DNA of 55,303 nt, from UHGV virus genome UHGV-0114783; one strand, given 5' to 3'. Source of the DNA: a virus. Every line of letters starts with the position of its first letter. The first letter of the stretch is position 1. The position numbers and the translations under genes are program-made. Below are positions 52,217 to 55,128 of the stretch, in pieces. The notes under the pieces are model-generated. The model was not told where the DNA came from, searched no databases, and saw nothing but the letters and a program-made list of their open reading frames with translations.

Positions 52217-53112
52217 TGGCAATAAACAACTTTAAACCTTTCGCGCTTGATCCGAACGCTAACGTCACCTCACAAGCTGACTGGGAAGCACTTCCGGCTC
52301 TGCTTTCAGGGTTTACGGCAGGTAAAGCATCCAGCGCACAGGTCAACAAAGCTATTCGGCAAGCCAGCTTTATCGCGGCAGCGTTGGCGCAGTACACCGC
52401 CAACAAAAGCGGGCTGGATGTGCTTGATGATGGAGACCTGAACGGGTTTATATCCAAAATGGGGACCGCTTTCGGGAAAGATTTCCAGGCGCTTGATGCC
52501 ACGCTGTCGGCATTAGCTGGGCTCGCAACAGGTGCAAATAAACTCCCATATTTCACTGGAAATGATACAGCAGCGCAGACTGATTTAACTTCTGTTGGCC
52601 GTGACATTATTGGGAAAAATACTATTGCTGACATTCTCACATACCTTGGTTTGGGAGAAGGCTCTGCATTACCTGTTGGTGTGCCTGTTCCGTGGCCTTC
52701 AGCTACACCACCGACAGGCTGGTTGAAATGCAATGGTGCAGCTTTTTCTGCTGAAGAATACCCGGAGCTGGCAAAGGCTTACCCGACAAATAAATTGCCT
52801 GATTTACGTGGTGAGTTTATTCGTGGCTGGGATGATGGGCGTGGAGTGGACAGTGGGCGAGCGTTATTGAGTGCTCAGAGCGATACGCTGCAAAATATTA
52901 CAGGTAGCTTTTGGGATATGACCACGGGGCCAAATAATAATACTGTCGGCGCATTTACCTCTTCAACATTGACACCAAATCTCGCATCAATTGCGACAGG
53001 TGGTACATATAAACAGGCGAATTATTATTTTGATGCATCACGTGTTGCCAGAACATCAACGGAAACACGTGCGCGAAATATTGCATTTAACTTTATCGTG
53101 AGGGCTGCATAA
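52216..53112 (+). CDS. Tail fiber protein (constant N-terminal part plus current-orientation variable C-terminal part)
   Basis: ORF track 52198..53112 trimmed to ATG 52216; C-terminal WLKCNGAAFSAEEYPELAKAY..LPDLRGEFIRGWDDGRG collar-like motif; gix-like site inside the gene. Confidence 0.7.
   Translation: MAINNFKPFALDPNANVTSQADWEALPALLSGFTAGKASSAQVNKAIRQASFIAAALAQYTANKSGLDVLDDGDLNGFISKMGTAFGKDFQALDATLSALAGLATGANKLPYFTGNDTAAQTDLTSVGRDIIGKNTIADILTYLGLGEGSALPVGVPVPWPSATPPTGWLKCNGAAFSAEEYPELAKAYPTNKLPDLRGEFIRGWDDGRGVDSGRALLSAQSDTLQNITGSFWDMTTGPNNNTVGAFTSSTLTPNLASIATGGTYKQANYYFDASRVARTSTETRARNIAFNFIVRAA
52634..52659. promoter_or_regulatory. gix/hix-like invertase crossover site (left), within the tail fiber gene
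   Basis: TTCTCACATACC-TT-GGTTTGGGAGAA, two 12-bp half-sites in inverted orientation; inverted copy near 54495..54520. Confidence 0.5.
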
Positions 53113-53714
53113 TGGATAACGCTGTATTAAATAGCGAGCTTATTGCCACGAAGGCGGGGAATATTACCGTCTATAGCTATGATGGTGAAACTCGGGAATA
53201 TATTTCCACTTCAAATGAATATCTTGCCGTTGGTGTCGGCATTCCGGCATGTTCCTGTTTAGATGCCCCTGGCACACATAAGGCTGGTTATGCAATCTGC
53301 CGTTCTGCAGATTTTAACTCATGGGAATATGTGCCAGACCATCGCGGTGAAACGGTCTATAGCACCAAAACAGGAGAATCAAAAGAAATCACCGCTCCGG
53401 GTGATTACCCTGAAAATACAACCACTATCGCCCCATTAACGCCATACGATAAATGGGATGGTGAGAAATGGGTGACGGATACTGAGGCACAGCATAGCGC
53501 CGCAGTAGAAGCGGCAGAAGCACAGCGCCAGTATCTGATTGATGCTGCTATGGCTTCCATCAGTCTGATTCAACTGAAATTGCAGGCCGGACGTAAACTG
53601 ACGCAGACTGAAACAACCCGCCTTAACGCTGTGCTGGATTACATTGACGCGGTGACGGCAACTGATACCAGCACCGCGCCAGATGTCATCTGGCCTGAAC
53701 TGCCGGAGGCGTAG
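53112..53714 (+). CDS. Tail fiber assembly protein (Tfa)
   Basis: 200-aa ORF immediately after the tail fiber gene; C-terminal LNAVLDYIDAV.ATDTS.APD..WPE motif shared with the minus-strand Tfa. Confidence 0.7.
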   Translation: MDNAVLNSELIATKAGNITVYSYDGETREYISTSNEYLAVGVGIPACSCLDAPGTHKAGYAICRSADFNSWEYVPDHRGETVYSTKTGESKEITAPGDYPENTTTIAPLTPYDKWDGEKWVTDTEAQHSAAVEAAEAQRQYLIDAAMASISLIQLKLQAGRKLTQTETTRLNAVLDYIDAVTATDTSTAPDVIWPELPEA

Positions 53715-54159
53715 GCCATTCAATATCTGGAGCACTGGAAGTATCGACCATTTCCAGTGCGTCCAGGTAATCCAGCCACAGATTATATTGCGCCAGTTCC
53801 TCACCTTTCAGACGACCAATAGCCGCTTTACCGGGCCATTGTTTATTGTTCATGTATTCGTTGGCCTGGTTAATCAATTGCTGCTTTTTCAATTCGGCTG
53901 CGGCAATCTGTTCCTCATGTGTTGGTGGTGGAATATCTGCCCATGATGGCATTCCATCTTCACCAACGCATCTGTATTTTCCTTCTGGTGCTGGTTTAAG
54001 TGCAAATTCTTCGAAAACAGAATATTTAACGGGTTTTGCATCTGCTGGAAAAGTATTAGATTTAATATATTCTTGTTTCAAATGCTCAGGGTAAAATGCA
54101 TTATTTATAGAGCTGTAGTATATTATGTTCGACATTTTATAATCCTTATGGGAGCTCAA
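53686..54159 (-). CDS. Alternative tail fiber assembly protein (Tfa')
   Basis: 157-aa ORF on the opposite strand with the same C-terminal motif (LWLDYLDALEMVDTSSAPDIEWP). Confidence 0.65.
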   Translation of the reverse strand: MSSHKDYKMSNIIYYSSINNAFYPEHLKQEYIKSNTFPADAKPVKYSVFEEFALKPAPEGKYRCVGEDGMPSWADIPPPTHEEQIAAAELKKQQLINQANEYMNNKQWPGKAAIGRLKGEELAQYNLWLDYLDALEMVDTSSAPDIEWPTPPAVQAR

Positions 54160-54527
54160 TATCCCAGTACCAGAAAATCACCTGTTTCAGTTGCGGCTGA
54201 AGTTGATATAGTCCTTGCAGCACAAATGGCCTTTAATTCTGTTTTTGTTAGTTCGGACACTCCCCAGGAATTAATACCTATTGGGCCTGTGGATACTGCG
54301 GTTTTTTCAGCAATAAATGCCATAAATGCAGAATTTGGAAAAGCAATAGGATAACTTCCTGTTGCAACACCAGTTTTACTATCAGAAGGTCCGATTATTC
54401 CCCATTGGATAATAAAAGACTTCCCCTCTATAACAGGGATTTTTATCCAGCCAGATGATGATAAAGAGCCACTAATCGCAGGCAATTTGGCCGCTTCTCC
54501 CAAACCAACCTTTTTTATAACCATCAA
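54156..54527 (-). CDS. Alternative tail fiber C-terminal segment lacking its own start (expressed only after inversion)
   Basis: 123-aa reading frame with no in-frame ATG (TTG only; in-frame stop just upstream); ends at the Tfa' start. Confidence 0.55.
   Translation of the reverse strand: MMVIKKVGLGEAAKLPAISGSLSSSGWIKIPVIEGKSFIIQWGIIGPSDSKTGVATGSYPIAFPNSAFMAFIAEKTAVSTGPIGINSWGVSELTKTELKAICAARTISTSAATETGDFLVLGY
54495..54520. promoter_or_regulatory. gix/hix-like invertase crossover site (right), inverted relative to the left site
   Basis: TTCTCCCAAACC-AA-CCTTTTTTATAA; reverse complement shares GGTTTGGGAGAAG with the left site. Confidence 0.45.
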
Positions 54528-54579
54528 AAATCTGGTGATGCTTCGCCGTTTCTCCTGTTTTCATAACAGGAGAAATCCC

Positions 54580-55128
54580 ATGATTTACGGTTATGCCCGA
54601 GTATCAACAAACCACCAGGACACTGAATTGCAACTAACGGCGCTCAAGTCAGCGGGTTGTGAGAAAATTTTTGAAGAGCATGCCAGCGGGAGGAAATCGA
54701 ATCGGCCGGTTCTAAAACGGCTGATCGCCACTATGCAGCCGGGGGATGAACTGGTGGTCTGGAAGCTGGACAGGATAGGCCGCAACGTTCTGCATGCGCT
54801 GTTGATGTTCCAGCAGTTACAGGAAAAGGGTATCAACTTCCGCAGTATTACCGATGGCGTGGATCTCAAAACAGCCAGCGGCCGCTATAACTTTCGTAAC
54901 ATCCTTTCCGCAGCACAATATGAATCTGATCTTAATAGCGAACGTACCTTAGCAGGGCTGGCCGTAGCCAGGGCAAAAGGGCGAGTTGGTGGTCGCAGGC
55001 CTAAGTTCACGGATGAGCAATGGCGGGAAATGGGGGAGCGGATGGCAACCGGTGAATCACGACAAAGCGTATCAAAAACGTATGGAGTAGGGCTCTCAAC
55101 TCTGTATAAAAAGTTTCCAGCTAGCTGA
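54580..55128 (+). CDS. Serine recombinase, DNA invertase (Hin/Gin/Pin/Cin family)
   Basis: ORF track 54487..55128 trimmed to ATG 54580 (AGGAG upstream); N-terminal MIYGYARVST with catalytic-Ser context, C-terminal HTH. Confidence 0.85.
   Translation: MIYGYARVSTNHQDTELQLTALKSAGCEKIFEEHASGRKSNRPVLKRLIATMQPGDELVVWKLDRIGRNVLHALLMFQQLQEKGINFRSITDGVDLKTASGRYNFRNILSAAQYESDLNSERTLAGLAVARAKGRVGGRRPKFTDEQWREMGERMATGESRQSVSKTYGVGLSTLYKKFPAS

What the first reader, a model, noticed from the sequence alone, without database searches (positions are those of the whole stretch)
52634..55128. Invertible tail-fiber switch with gix-like sites and adjacent invertase
The tail fiber gene contains TTCTCACATACC-TT-GGTTTGGGAGAA with dyad symmetry, and an inverted copy lies just upstream of the invertase gene. 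Between them are two convergent sets: fiber C-terminus plus Tfa on the + strand, and Tfa' plus a start-less fiber C-terminus on the - strand. This is the Mu G / P1 C / e14 P-type host-range switch, an established system, but here the sites and both cassettes can be read directly.
Basis: partly seen in the sequence, partly recalled or inferred. Interest (0 to 1): 0.5.

Follow-up and report, generated by a model that had tools for sequence, protein, structure and literature searches.

The report
Invertible phage tail-fibre host-range switch
This is an ordinary e14/Mu-type DNA flip-switch that lets a prophage make one of two alternative tail-fibre tips, and its only unusual part is a recombinase from an unstudied sister branch of the classical Gin/Cin/Pin/Hin enzymes.

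Summary
Two 26-bp sites in inverted orientation bracket a 1.86-kb segment: 52634-52659 inside the tail-fibre gene, and 54495-54520, which ends 59 nt upstream of the invertase start. The segment holds two convergent cassette pairs, Sv+Tfa on the + strand and Tfa'+start-less S'v on the - strand. Flipping it in silico keeps both sites and gives an in-frame 260-aa alternative fibre. The inner half-sites and core dinucleotide are identical to the e14 P-segment sites, and U is 94% identical to TfaE. The invertase (54580-55128, 182 aa) is intact and aligns end to end with Mu Gin. Related phages and E. coli prophages that carry this same invertase hold the same cassettes in the opposite orientation, so the segment has flipped in nature. 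What is new is modest. The invertase is only 51-55% identical to Gin/Cin/Pin/Fin, which are 76-83% identical to each other. Its lineage has an invariant, different oligomerisation helix (YNFRNI for FFFHVM). This copy lacks the residues Hin uses to contact Fis, and the gene lacks the conserved G/C marks of the distal Fis site. Whether Fis controls it is therefore open. Verdict: new member of a known kind, low to moderate interest.

The parts
52216..52645 (+). Constant N-terminal part (Sc) of the tail-fibre gene, outside the invertible segment. It is expressed in both orientations.
   Evidence: ORF 52198-53112 with ATG at 52216 overlapping the stop of the upstream DUF2612 gene. RefSeq uses the same start in the homologous prophages L001 and L002.
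52634..52659 (.). Left recombination site TTCTCACATACC|TT|GGTTTGGGAGAA. The predicted crossover is at the central TT, 52646-52647.
   Evidence: The inner half and core are identical to the e14 left site CTCTCGAAAACC TT GGTTTGGGAGAA.
52660..53112 (+). Sv, the variable fibre C-terminus currently fused to Sc (150 aa, phage tail collar domain). This is the expressed state.
   Evidence: Pfam Collar, E=9e-16. 54% aa identity to the e14 StfE C-terminus. 99.6% nt identity to the copy in phage Omnitron, where it lies flipped.
53112..53714 (+). U, the tail-fibre assembly chaperone cognate to Sv (200 aa).
   Evidence: Pfam Caudo_TAP, E=2e-32. 94% aa identity to e14 TfaE.
53686..54135 (-). U', the alternative assembly chaperone (149 aa). 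It is silent in this orientation, and its 3' end overlaps U by 29 nt.
   Evidence: Pfam Caudo_TAP, E=2e-35. 59% identity to e14 TfaP over its C-terminal 98 aligned residues. The same 29-nt overlap is annotated in e14 and in L001-L003.
54156..54494 (-). S'v, the alternative fibre C-terminus with no start codon of its own (112 aa, gp53-like C-terminal domain). It is silent in this orientation.
   Evidence: Pfam Gp53-like_C, E=3.5e-9. After in-silico inversion it reads in frame with Sc...TYLGLGE|AAKLPAISG..., to give a 260-aa fibre. 37% identity to the e14 StfP C-terminus.
54495..54520 (.). Right recombination site TTCTCCCAAACC|AA|CCTTTTTTATAA. The inner half and core are the inverted copy of the left site, and the outer half is degenerate.
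   Evidence: The AAACC AA CCTTT core is conserved upstream of the invertase in relatives from 62% to 100% identity.
54548..54576 (+). 12-bp stem, 5-nt loop RNA hairpin in the invertase leader. It buries the Shine-Dalgarno GGAG (54569-54572) and probably keeps invertase translation low (inferred).
   Evidence: MFE -25.5 kcal/mol, z=-4.2, 0 of 200 shuffles fold as well. The stem is kept in mEp237, L016-L018, L025 and L027 while the loop varies, and mEp237 has one compensatory U-A to C-G change.
54580..55128 (+). Serine DNA invertase, 182 aa, intact. It has catalytic Ser9 and Arg7, Asp64, Arg65 and Arg68, plus a C-terminal HTH.
   Evidence: Pfam Resolvase, E=4e-39, and HTH_7. It aligns over residues 1-181 without gaps to Mu Gin structures 3UJ3 and 4M6F, E=1e-56. 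The DNA is 100% identical to the gene for WP_000639140.1 in E. coli ET896. The protein is 100% identical to the phage mEp237 invertase.
54602..54664 (.). Stretch of the invertase gene (nt 23-85) where the gin, cin, pin and fin genes carry a conserved pair of Fis-consensus matches 48 bp apart, which I take to be the recombinational enhancer. The pair is not recognisable here: both sites score 5/7, and the distal one lacks both the G at -7 and the C at +7.
   Evidence: The synonymous-site profile is inconclusive.
55249..55265 (+). attR core AGAACACTTTCTTAAAT. Its direct repeat at 39-55 is attL, so the switch is the last module of a complete prophage spanning 39-55265.
   Evidence: 2 exact matches against 0 expected. 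mEp237 annotates the same 17-mer as a phi80-type attP. The flank continues into yciI/tonB in E. coli.

Best explanation
This is a two-state, site-specific inversion switch for phage host range, of the e14 P / Mu G / P1 C kind. The late operon transcribes a fibre gene whose first 148 codons (Sc) lie outside a 1.86-kb invertible segment. In the orientation sequenced, Sc is fused to Sv (collar-domain tip) and is followed by its chaperone U. The serine invertase encoded just outside the segment binds as dimers to the two 26-bp sites. It cleaves at the central TT/AA dinucleotide through Ser9, rotates one pair of subunits by 180 degrees and religates. That places S'v (gp53-like tip) and its chaperone U' behind Sc instead. 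A lysogen population would therefore release two kinds of virions with different receptor specificity. Shown here: the anatomy, the reading frames, an intact enzyme with its catalytic residues, sites identical in their functional core to the e14 sites, and both orientations among natural relatives. Inferred: that this particular prophage flips today, its rate, which receptors are used, and which cofactor is needed. Invertase output is probably held low by a leader hairpin that buries the ribosome-binding site (inferred).
For: The sites are real and non-random, and there are only two in 55 kb. In-silico inversion keeps both sites and gives an in-frame 260-aa fibre. Domain assignments are Collar, Caudo_TAP twice, Gp53-like_C, and Resolvase+HTH_7. 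The invertase aligns full-length and without gaps to Gin, with Ser9, Arg7, Asp64, Arg65 and Arg68 present. The e14 sites share the inner half-site GGTTTGGGAGAA and the core TT, and U is 94% identical to TfaE. Natural flips are documented four ways. Phage Omnitron has Sv (99.6%) and U on the opposite strand next to a 92.5%-identical invertase region. Omnitron versus E. coli PSJ-22 has flanks at 94.5% and 92.3% on the same strand, with 1460 nt of the segment at 93.4% on the opposite strand. E. coli isolate 44 versus PSJ-22 has the invertase flank at 99.4% on the same strand, with 1411 nt of the segment at 95.3% on the opposite strand. The simulated flipped right junction, Sv against this invertase, exists in 60 complete E. 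coli genomes at up to 98.7% identity. The whole segment, from site to site, recurs at 98.6% identity in a P2-like prophage that has an unrelated Sc and a Pin-like invertase. The sites are therefore the module boundaries, and Pin-type enzymes use the same sites. The leader hairpin has z=-4.2.
Against: No read-level data exist for this lysogen, so current activity is not shown. The exact cassette combination found here (this S'v next to this invertase) has no full-length match among 5,426 E. coli genomes, so no truly isogenic flipped twin was found. In the ten genomes where the same S'v sits beside a Pin-like invertase, only one orientation is seen. The outer half of the right site is weak. This copy of the invertase lacks residues that Hin needs for Fis activation (PMC3798978).
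Confidence: 0.85

Rival explanations
1. The switch is the same, but it is controlled differently. The invertase belongs to a sister lineage of the Gin/Cin/Pin/Hin (Din) enzymes, and that lineage may not depend on the Fis-bound enhancer, or may depend on it much less. Its altered oligomerisation helix may let the active tetramer assemble on its own.
For: The enzyme is 51-55% identical to Gin, Cin, PinE and Fin, which are 76-83% identical to one another. The helix-E segment GRYNFRNILSAAQYESDLNSERT is invariant in 120 of 120 cluster representatives (79-100% identity) and in relatives down to 62%. It replaces GRFFFHVMGALAEMERELIxERT. Hin Phe105 therefore corresponds to Asn, His107 to Arg, Met109 to Ile and Leu112 to Ala. 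In Hin, Phe105 locks the inactive dimer, and F105N gives Fis-independent cleavage and inversion (PMC4513852). The third basic helix-B residue that contacts enhancer DNA (Hin Lys51) is Ala/Thr/Gly/Asp/Ser across the lineage. The Fis-contact residues Gln151, Arg154 and Leu155, described as uniquely conserved among Fis-dependent invertases (PMC3798978), are Glu/Glu/Arg in this protein and vary across the lineage. G71 and C85, which I take as the -7 and +7 positions of the distal Fis site, are invariant in gin, cin, pin and fin across differing codons. Here they are C71 and A85, and position 71 is C in all 13 lineage genes examined.
Against: About 40% of lineage members, including Omnitron, keep Arg and Leu at the Fis-contact positions. 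A reasonable Fis-like 15-mer with G at -7 and C at +7 sits at nt 20-34 of the gene. Synonymous sites are constrained over codons 1-24, as they are in the classical genes. Fis sites are degenerate, and the location of the classical enhancer used here rests on my consensus scan and spacing rather than a mapped footprint. A co-evolved helix E cannot be read through single Hin mutants. All hosts of the lineage are Enterobacterales, which have Fis.
Confidence: 0.25
2. The structure is a frozen relic. It is intact on paper but no longer inverts in this prophage, for example because the invertase-attP-int module was acquired by recombination from a lambdoid phage and is poorly matched to the sites or to Fis.
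For: Lambdoid phage mEp237 carries the 100%-identical invertase next to the same attP and integrase. It has only one orphan site, and the core dinucleotide of the other site-like sequence in its fibre gene does not match (TC versus TT). Window 35-5292 is 99.6% identical to mEp237. Relatives show decay: a frameshifted invertase in ECONIH5 and a deleted left site in isolate 44.
Against: In this window both sites, both cassette pairs and the invertase ORF are intact, and the core dinucleotides match. The same invertase allele sits beside flipped cassettes in many genomes.
Confidence: 0.1
3. The main benefit goes to the host cell rather than the phage. Flipping would create a fibre-derived protein that blocks adsorption of other phages, as reported for PinQ-driven inversion of the e14 P segment, which produces StfE2 and blocks phage T2.
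For: The cassettes are homologous to those of e14. That effect has been published for e14 (PMC12529663).
Against: Here the switch is the last module of a complete prophage with att repeats and full head, tail and baseplate gene sets. Host-range variation of virions is therefore the simpler reading. Nothing here tests adsorption blocking.
Confidence: 0.05

Closest known systems
e14 P segment and Pin (E. coli K-12 cryptic prophage e14: stfP-tfaP / tfaE-stfE, pinE)
   Same: The layout is the same, and the segment sizes are close (1797 bp per PMC12529663 versus 1861 bp here). The inner half-site GGTTTGGGAGAA and the core TT are identical. The convergent tfa genes overlap by the same 29 nt. U is 94% identical to TfaE, and U', Sv and S'v are 59%, 54% and 37% identical to TfaP, StfE and StfP.
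   Different: The invertase is only 55% identical to PinE and has a different helix E and a different DBD helix 1. The segment lies in the opposite orientation to K-12. The host element is a complete 55-kb prophage at kch/yciI rather than a 15-kb remnant at icd.
Mu G segment and Gin; P1 C segment and Cin
   Same: The logic is the same: Sc outside the segment, Sv-U and S'v-U' inside, and the invertase gene adjacent and outside. The sites are 26 bp with AAACC-NN-GGTTT centres. The invertase aligns full-length to Gin crystal structures.
   Different: The cassettes show no blastp similarity to Mu or P1 S/U proteins at E below 0.01. The segment is 1.86 kb against about 3.06 kb between the two Mu site centres. 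The invertase is 52% identical. Mu's two sites are perfect inverted copies, whereas here only the inner half is. The core dinucleotide is TT here and TC/GA in Mu.
Salmonella Hin / hix / Fis enhancer (the mechanistic paradigm)
   Same: Both use a small serine recombinase. The catalytic Ser, the Arg/Asp/Arg set and Phe106 (Phe105 here) are conserved. Both use a 26-bp site with a 2-bp core, and both have a weak outer half-site, as in hixR (my recollection for hixR).
   Different: Hin flips a promoter rather than a coding segment. The Hin residues Phe105, His107, Met109, Lys51, Gln151, Arg154 and Leu155, which gate or mediate Fis/enhancer activation, are Asn, Arg, Ile, Ala, Glu, Glu and Arg here (PMC3798978, PMC4513852).
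Multiple-inversion systems (Min of p15B, Rci shufflons)
   Same: Both vary the C-terminus of a receptor-binding protein by DNA inversion.
   Different: The window holds only two sites, giving two states. The enzyme is a serine recombinase, unlike the tyrosine recombinase Rci.

Membership tests
Phage tail-fibre inversion switch (Mu G / P1 C / e14 P architecture) | The crossover site lies inside the fibre ORF, so a constant N-terminus is joined to alternative C-termini. | tested here: met
   The left site 52634-52659 lies within ORF 52216-53112.
Phage tail-fibre inversion switch (Mu G / P1 C / e14 P architecture) | Two convergent cassettes, each a fibre C-terminus plus its cognate assembly chaperone, with the second C-terminus lacking a start codon. 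| tested here: met
   Collar+Caudo_TAP on the + strand and Caudo_TAP+Gp53-like_C on the - strand. S'v has no start codon of its own in frame downstream of the site.
Phage tail-fibre inversion switch (Mu G / P1 C / e14 P architecture) | Both orientations give an open, in-frame fibre gene. | tested here: met
   298 aa as found and 260 aa after in-silico inversion at the core dinucleotides.
Phage tail-fibre inversion switch (Mu G / P1 C / e14 P architecture) | The segment is actually found in both orientations. | tested here: met
   This was met among relatives, not within this strain: Omnitron, isolate 44 versus PSJ-22, and 60 genomes with the flipped junction. Read-level heterogeneity in this lysogen cannot be tested here.
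Din family of DNA invertases (Gin/Cin/Pin/Hin/Min) | A small serine recombinase of about 180-190 aa, with an N-terminal catalytic domain carrying the nucleophilic Ser9/10 and a C-terminal HTH. | tested here: met
   Resolvase+HTH_7. Gapless alignment to Gin over 1-181, E=1e-56, with Ser9, Arg7, Asp64, Arg65 and Arg68 present.
Din family of DNA invertases (Gin/Cin/Pin/Hin/Min) | Two 26-bp sites in inverted orientation, each made of 12-bp imperfect dyad halves around a 2-bp core that is identical in both sites. | tested here: met
   The core is TT, reading AA on the other strand at the right site.
Din family of DNA invertases (Gin/Cin/Pin/Hin/Min) | Close sequence relatedness to the classical members (76-83% pairwise among Gin, Cin, PinE and Fin). 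| tested here: not met
   51-55% identity to each classical member. It forms its own lineage with 61-72% internal identity across genera.
Fis/enhancer-dependent DNA invertases (functional definition) | A recombinational enhancer, with two Fis sites 48 bp apart, in the 5' part of the invertase gene about 100 bp from a site. | tested here: inconclusive
   The classical genes share consensus matches at nt 23 and nt 71. Here both positions score 5/7, and the distal one lacks G at -7 and C at +7. An alternative G..C 15-mer lies at nt 20. Synonymous-site constraint covers codons 1-24 only. Sequence alone cannot decide Fis binding.
Fis/enhancer-dependent DNA invertases (functional definition) | The Fis-contact residues on DBD helix 1 (Hin Gln151, Arg154, Leu155) and the basic helix-B patch (Hin Lys47, Arg48, Lys51). 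| tested here: not met
   Here they are Glu150, Glu153 and Arg154, and Lys46, Arg47 and Ala50. The criteria come from PMC3798978. Some lineage members, such as Omnitron, keep Arg and Leu.
Fis/enhancer-dependent DNA invertases (functional definition) | Inversion requires Fis in vivo or in vitro. | not testable with these tools
   This needs a fis mutant host or purified proteins.
Multiple-inversion systems (Min / shufflon) | More than two recombination sites delimiting several invertible sub-segments. | tested here: not met
   Exactly two site-like 26-mers exist in the whole window.

The most novel reading that the evidence does not exclude
The invertase represents a widespread but unstudied sister lineage of the classical Din invertases in Enterobacterales phages, and that lineage has dispensed with, or rewired, Fis/enhancer control. 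Its invariant YNFRNI...A..Y.S helix E carries Asn where Hin has the dimer-locking Phe105. The Fis-contact and enhancer-contact residues are relaxed. The distal Fis site marks are missing from the gene. Translation may instead be throttled by a leader hairpin that buries the ribosome-binding site. It would be a natural counterpart of the laboratory 'hyperactive' Hin/Gin mutants, acting on the same sites as Pin.
Probability: 0.22. Interest if true: 0.55.

Novelty: new member of a known kind. Interest (0 to 1): 0.3.

Why it matters
As a switch it adds nothing conceptually. Tail-fibre inversion by serine invertases has been textbook material since Mu, P1 and e14, and it is enriched in systematic inversion surveys (PMC9881135). 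It is useful in three smaller ways. First, it is a clean, fully readable example in an apparently complete prophage. Second, the same segment recurs site to site at about 99% identity in an unrelated P2-like prophage with a different invertase. This shows that the sites act as boundaries for cassette exchange between phages, which matters for predicting host range and for engineering phages. Third, the invertase lineage could be a natural test of how much of the Hin/Gin regulatory machinery (Fis, enhancer, Phe105 lock) is dispensable. It would also offer a compact recombinase for the pix-type site that may not need host Fis.

Tried and rejected
1. An isogenic flipped twin of this exact cassette set. 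The window-state right junction has no full-length match in 5,426 E. coli genomes. A simulated junction of a P2-like Sc fused to this S'v has none either. Flips could therefore be shown only between close relatives, not identical ones.

2. A Fis enhancer found by consensus scan (GNNYRNNWNNYRNNC). The classical genes give a conserved pair at nt 23 and nt 71. The window gives no pair of 6/7 or better 48 bp apart. This does not decide the question, because Fis sites are degenerate.

3. A synonymous-site conservation profile along the gene. Both lineages are constrained over the first ~20 codons, and only the classical set has a weak second bump at codons 21-36. This is too weak to use.

4. A multi-site (Min or shufflon-like) system. 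Rejected, because there are only two sites.

5. Homology of the cassettes to Mu or P1 S/U proteins. There were no blastp hits, so the relationship to those systems is architectural only.

6. NCBIfam. No specific invertase or fibre model passed its cut-off.

7. Promoter scan. No + strand sigma-70-like match was found between the right site and the invertase ATG, so the invertase promoter remains unidentified.

8. Contigs that end just upstream of the invertase in Trabulsiella, Kluyvera and Shimwellia assemblies. I considered these as signs of mixed orientation. In Kluyvera the same cassette sequence occurs beside two invertase copies, so repeat collapse explains the breaks equally well, and I did not use them as evidence.

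
Full report
**1. What is in the sequence**

The tail-fibre gene runs from 52216 to 53112 on the + strand. Its start overlaps the stop of the upstream DUF2612 baseplate gene. At 52634-52659 it contains TTCTCACATACC|TT|GGTTTGGGAGAA. This differs at one position from the palindromic Din-type consensus TTCTCNNAAACCNNGGTTTNNGAGAA, and none of 100 shuffles of the window gave a match at up to 3 mismatches.

A second site, TTCTCCCAAACC|AA|CCTTTTTTATAA, lies at 54495-54520. It ends 59 nt before the ATG (54580) of a 182-aa ORF.

The exact inverted repeat is 15 nt, TTGGTTTGGGAGAAG. 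It consists of the core dinucleotide, the inner half-site and one more base. It occurs only at these two places in 55 kb at up to 2 mismatches, against 0.11 expected. A half-site scoring scan of the whole window finds these two 26-mers and nothing else. The outer half of the right site is degenerate.

**2. The cassettes**

Between the sites lie four genes:
- Sv, 52660-53112 on +, with a phage tail collar domain.
- U, 53112-53714 on +, a Caudo_TAP chaperone.
- U', 53686-54135 on -, also Caudo_TAP.
- S'v, 54156-54494 on -, with a Gp53-like C-terminal domain and no start codon of its own.

The two chaperone genes overlap by 29 nt at their 3' ends. Sv and S'v show no similarity to each other. U and U' share only a C-terminal 80 residues at 35% identity.

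I inverted 52646-54508 in silico. Both sites are regenerated, and the fibre reads ...ILTYLGLGE|AAKLPAISGS..., giving a 260-aa protein. The sequenced state gives 298 aa.

**3. The recombinase**

The ORF 54580-55128 has Resolvase and HTH_7 domains. It aligns without gaps over residues 1-181 to the Mu Gin crystal-structure sequences 3UJ3 and 4M6F, with E=1e-56. Ser9, Arg7, Asp64, Arg65 and Arg68 are present.

Its DNA is 100% identical to the gene annotated WP_000639140.1 in E. coli ET896. The protein is 100% identical to the 'DNA invertase' of phage mEp237. It is not inactivated.

**4. Context**

The 17-mer AGAACACTTTCTTAAAT occurs at 39-55 and again at 55249-55265, with 0 matches expected by chance. 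In mEp237 this 17-mer is annotated as a phi80-type attP for the kch/yciI intergenic region. Beyond 55265 the window continues into the E. coli yciI/tonB neighbourhood.

The window therefore holds a whole prophage, and the switch is its last module before attR. The late region is colinear with Citrobacter phage Omnitron (a SEN34/yong1-like myovirus). The att-int-recE end is 99.6% identical to lambdoid phage mEp237.

**5. Does it flip?**

No reads are available for this lysogen, so I used natural variation among relatives.

(a) In Omnitron the flanks are in the same orientation as in the window. Sv (99.6%) and U (92.5%) are on the opposite strand, directly beside the invertase. Omnitron's left junction reads Sc-GLGE-AAK, which is an S'v-type fusion.

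(b) Omnitron compared with E. coli PSJ-22: the left flank is 94.5% and the right flank 92.3% identical on the same strand. 1460 nt of the segment are 93.4% identical on the opposite strand.

(c) E. coli isolate 44 compared with PSJ-22: both have this invertase at yciI. The invertase flank is 99.4% identical on the same strand, and 1411 nt of the segment are 95.3% identical on the opposite strand. The identical chaperone protein WP_001008225.1 is annotated on opposite strands in the two genomes.

(d) A synthetic 'flipped' right junction, made of Sv reversed, the site and the invertase 5' end, is present at 80% coverage or more in 60 complete E. coli genomes, at up to 98.7% identity.

The exact window-state junction has no full-length match. 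This particular pairing of S'v with this invertase is therefore new to that collection, and no strictly isogenic twin exists.

**6. Closest known system**

The e14 P segment of K-12 has sites CTCTCGAAAACC TT GGTTTGGGAGAA and TTCTCCCAAACC AA CGTTTATGAAAA. The inner half-site and core are the same as here. It also has the same 29-nt tfa overlap. TfaE is 94% identical to U, TfaP is 59% identical to U', StfE is 54% identical to Sv and StfP is 37% identical to S'v.

Mu's and P1's sites share the AAACC-NN-GGTTT centre, but their S and U proteins show no blastp similarity to the cassettes here.

The entire segment, exactly from the first base of the left site to just past the core of the right site (52634-54513), recurs at 98.6-98.7% identity in P2-like prophages. 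Their Sc is unrelated, and their Pin-like invertase region is only 67% identical at the DNA level over the 236 nt that align. The sites therefore mark the boundaries of an exchangeable module, and Pin-type enzymes evidently use the same sites. That the exchange itself is site-specific is my inference.

**7. What is different**

Gin, Cin, PinE and Fin are 76-83% identical to one another. This enzyme is 51-55% identical to each of them. Together with relatives from Erwinia, Morganella, Kluyvera, Citrobacter and a MAG (61-72% internal identity) it forms a separate lineage.

In 120 of 120 cluster representatives, and in the more distant relatives, the helix-E stretch GRYNFRNILSAAQYESDLNSERT is invariant. 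The classical enzymes have GRFFFHVMGALAEMERELIxERT at that position.

Mapped onto Hin numbering, the substitutions are:
- Phe105 becomes Asn.
- His107 becomes Arg.
- Met109 becomes Ile.
- Leu112 becomes Ala.
- Phe106, the essential residue, is kept.

In Hin, Phe105 and Met109 stabilise the inactive dimer, and F105N promotes Fis-independent cleavage and inversion (PMC4513852).

Hin Lys51, which is part of the basic patch that touches enhancer DNA, is Ala here and non-basic in 118 of the 120 lineage representatives. Hin Gln151, Arg154 and Leu155 are the Fis-contact residues, described as uniquely conserved among Fis-dependent invertases (PMC3798978). They are Glu, Glu and Arg here and vary in the lineage. 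Omnitron, whose first 148 residues are identical to this protein, has a different DNA-binding domain that keeps Arg and Leu.

At the DNA level, gin, cin, pin and fin share Fis-consensus matches at gene nt 23 and nt 71, which are 48 bp apart. G71 and C85 are invariant in those genes even though the codons encode different amino acids. Here nt 71 is C and nt 85 is A. Placing the classical enhancer at those positions rests on my scan and on the known 48-bp spacing and the ~100-bp distance from the site. It does not rest on a footprint I could read.

A synonymous-site profile does not settle the matter. I therefore treat 'Fis-independent or differently regulated' as a hypothesis with a probability of about 0.2-0.25, not as a finding.

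**8. Mechanism, with what is shown and what is inferred**

Shown:
- the sites;
- the reading frames in both orientations;
- an intact catalytic apparatus;
- identity of the functional site core with e14;
- natural occurrence of both orientations.

Inferred from the Hin/Gin paradigm:
- dimers bind each site;
- a tetramer forms at a supercoiled branch;
- Ser9 attacks at the staggered TT/AA core;
- one pair of subunits rotates 180 degrees, and the DNA is religated.

Inferred only, with no supporting evidence here:
- the receptor specificities of the two tips;
- the flip rate;
- cofactor use;
- low invertase translation caused by the 12-bp leader hairpin at 54548-54576, which buries GGAG (z=-4.2; the stem is kept while the loop varies, and mEp237 has one compensatory pair).

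**9. Verdict**

The system is known, with e14 P as the best match. The invertase is an uncharacterised sister-lineage member, so I rate the finding a new member of a known kind, with interest 0.3.

Noticed in passing
window 25404-38308: A ~12.9-kb block is absent from the otherwise colinear phage Omnitron. It carries its own tyrosine integrase (25595-26824), a second integrase fragment (28752-29723), a P4-alpha-like primase/helicase (30923-33754; Zn_Ribbon_Prim, Toprim_3, DUF927), a gpV-like spike (36691-37353) and a DUF2280 protein. It looks like a satellite or integrative element inserted among the prophage's head genes.
   Followed up: partly
window 35-5292 and 54925-55265: The prophage is a hybrid. 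The attL-integrase-xis-recT-recE end is 99.6% identical to lambdoid siphovirus mEp237, while the late genes are Omnitron/SEN34-like myovirus genes. In the circular phage map the invertase-attP-integrase stretch is one shared module.
   Followed up: partly
window 39-55 and 55249-55265: An exact 17-bp direct repeat, AGAACACTTTCTTAAAT, is present at both ends of the window. These are attL and attR of a phi80-type integration site between kch and yciI, so the window contains the entire prophage.
   Followed up: yes
window 54548-54576: A 12-bp stem, 5-nt loop hairpin in the invertase leader sequesters the Shine-Dalgarno sequence (z=-4.2). The stem is conserved with variable loops in mEp237, Trabulsiella, Kluyvera, Pseudocitrobacter, Shimwellia and Apirhabdus copies. 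The 'MIIGYARVSS' sub-lineage has a different leader. The Pin-like leader in L003 also folds over its SD and start codon, more weakly (z=-1.9).
   Followed up: partly
L013 (phage mEp237) 2417-2442 and 4416-4441: mEp237 carries the 100%-identical invertase but only an orphan right site with a stub of an S'v-type cassette. The site-like sequence in its fibre gene has a different core dinucleotide (TC versus TT). It is therefore a decayed switch in a viable lambdoid phage.
   Followed up: partly
L007 (E. coli isolate 44) 1784-1893: A deletion joins a DUF2612 gene fragment directly to the S'v-type cassette. This can only have happened while the segment was in the flipped orientation, so it is a fossil of that state, with the left site lost.
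   Followed up: yes
L016, L017, L019, L025, L028, L029: In several draft genomes (Trabulsiella, Kluyvera sichuanensis, Shimwellia) contigs end 165-930 nt upstream of the invertase start, or the invertase gene itself is split across 200-430-nt contigs. This could reflect mixed orientations in the sequenced culture or repeated cassettes between prophages. I could not tell which.
   Followed up: no
window 53686-53714: The two convergent chaperone genes overlap by 29 nt at their 3' ends, and the same overlap is annotated in e14, L001, L002, L003 and L005. The shared C-terminal motif (LDYIDAV / LDYLDAL) encoded on both strands produces the 18-nt inverted repeat 53633-53650 / 53759-53776.
   Followed up: partly
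window 54487-54579: Some gene callers extend the invertase ORF upstream to the TTG at 54487, giving 211-213 aa and starting inside the recombination site (P0001). The ATG at 54580, with its GGAG 7 nt upstream, and the RefSeq 182-aa model are the better call.
   Followed up: yes
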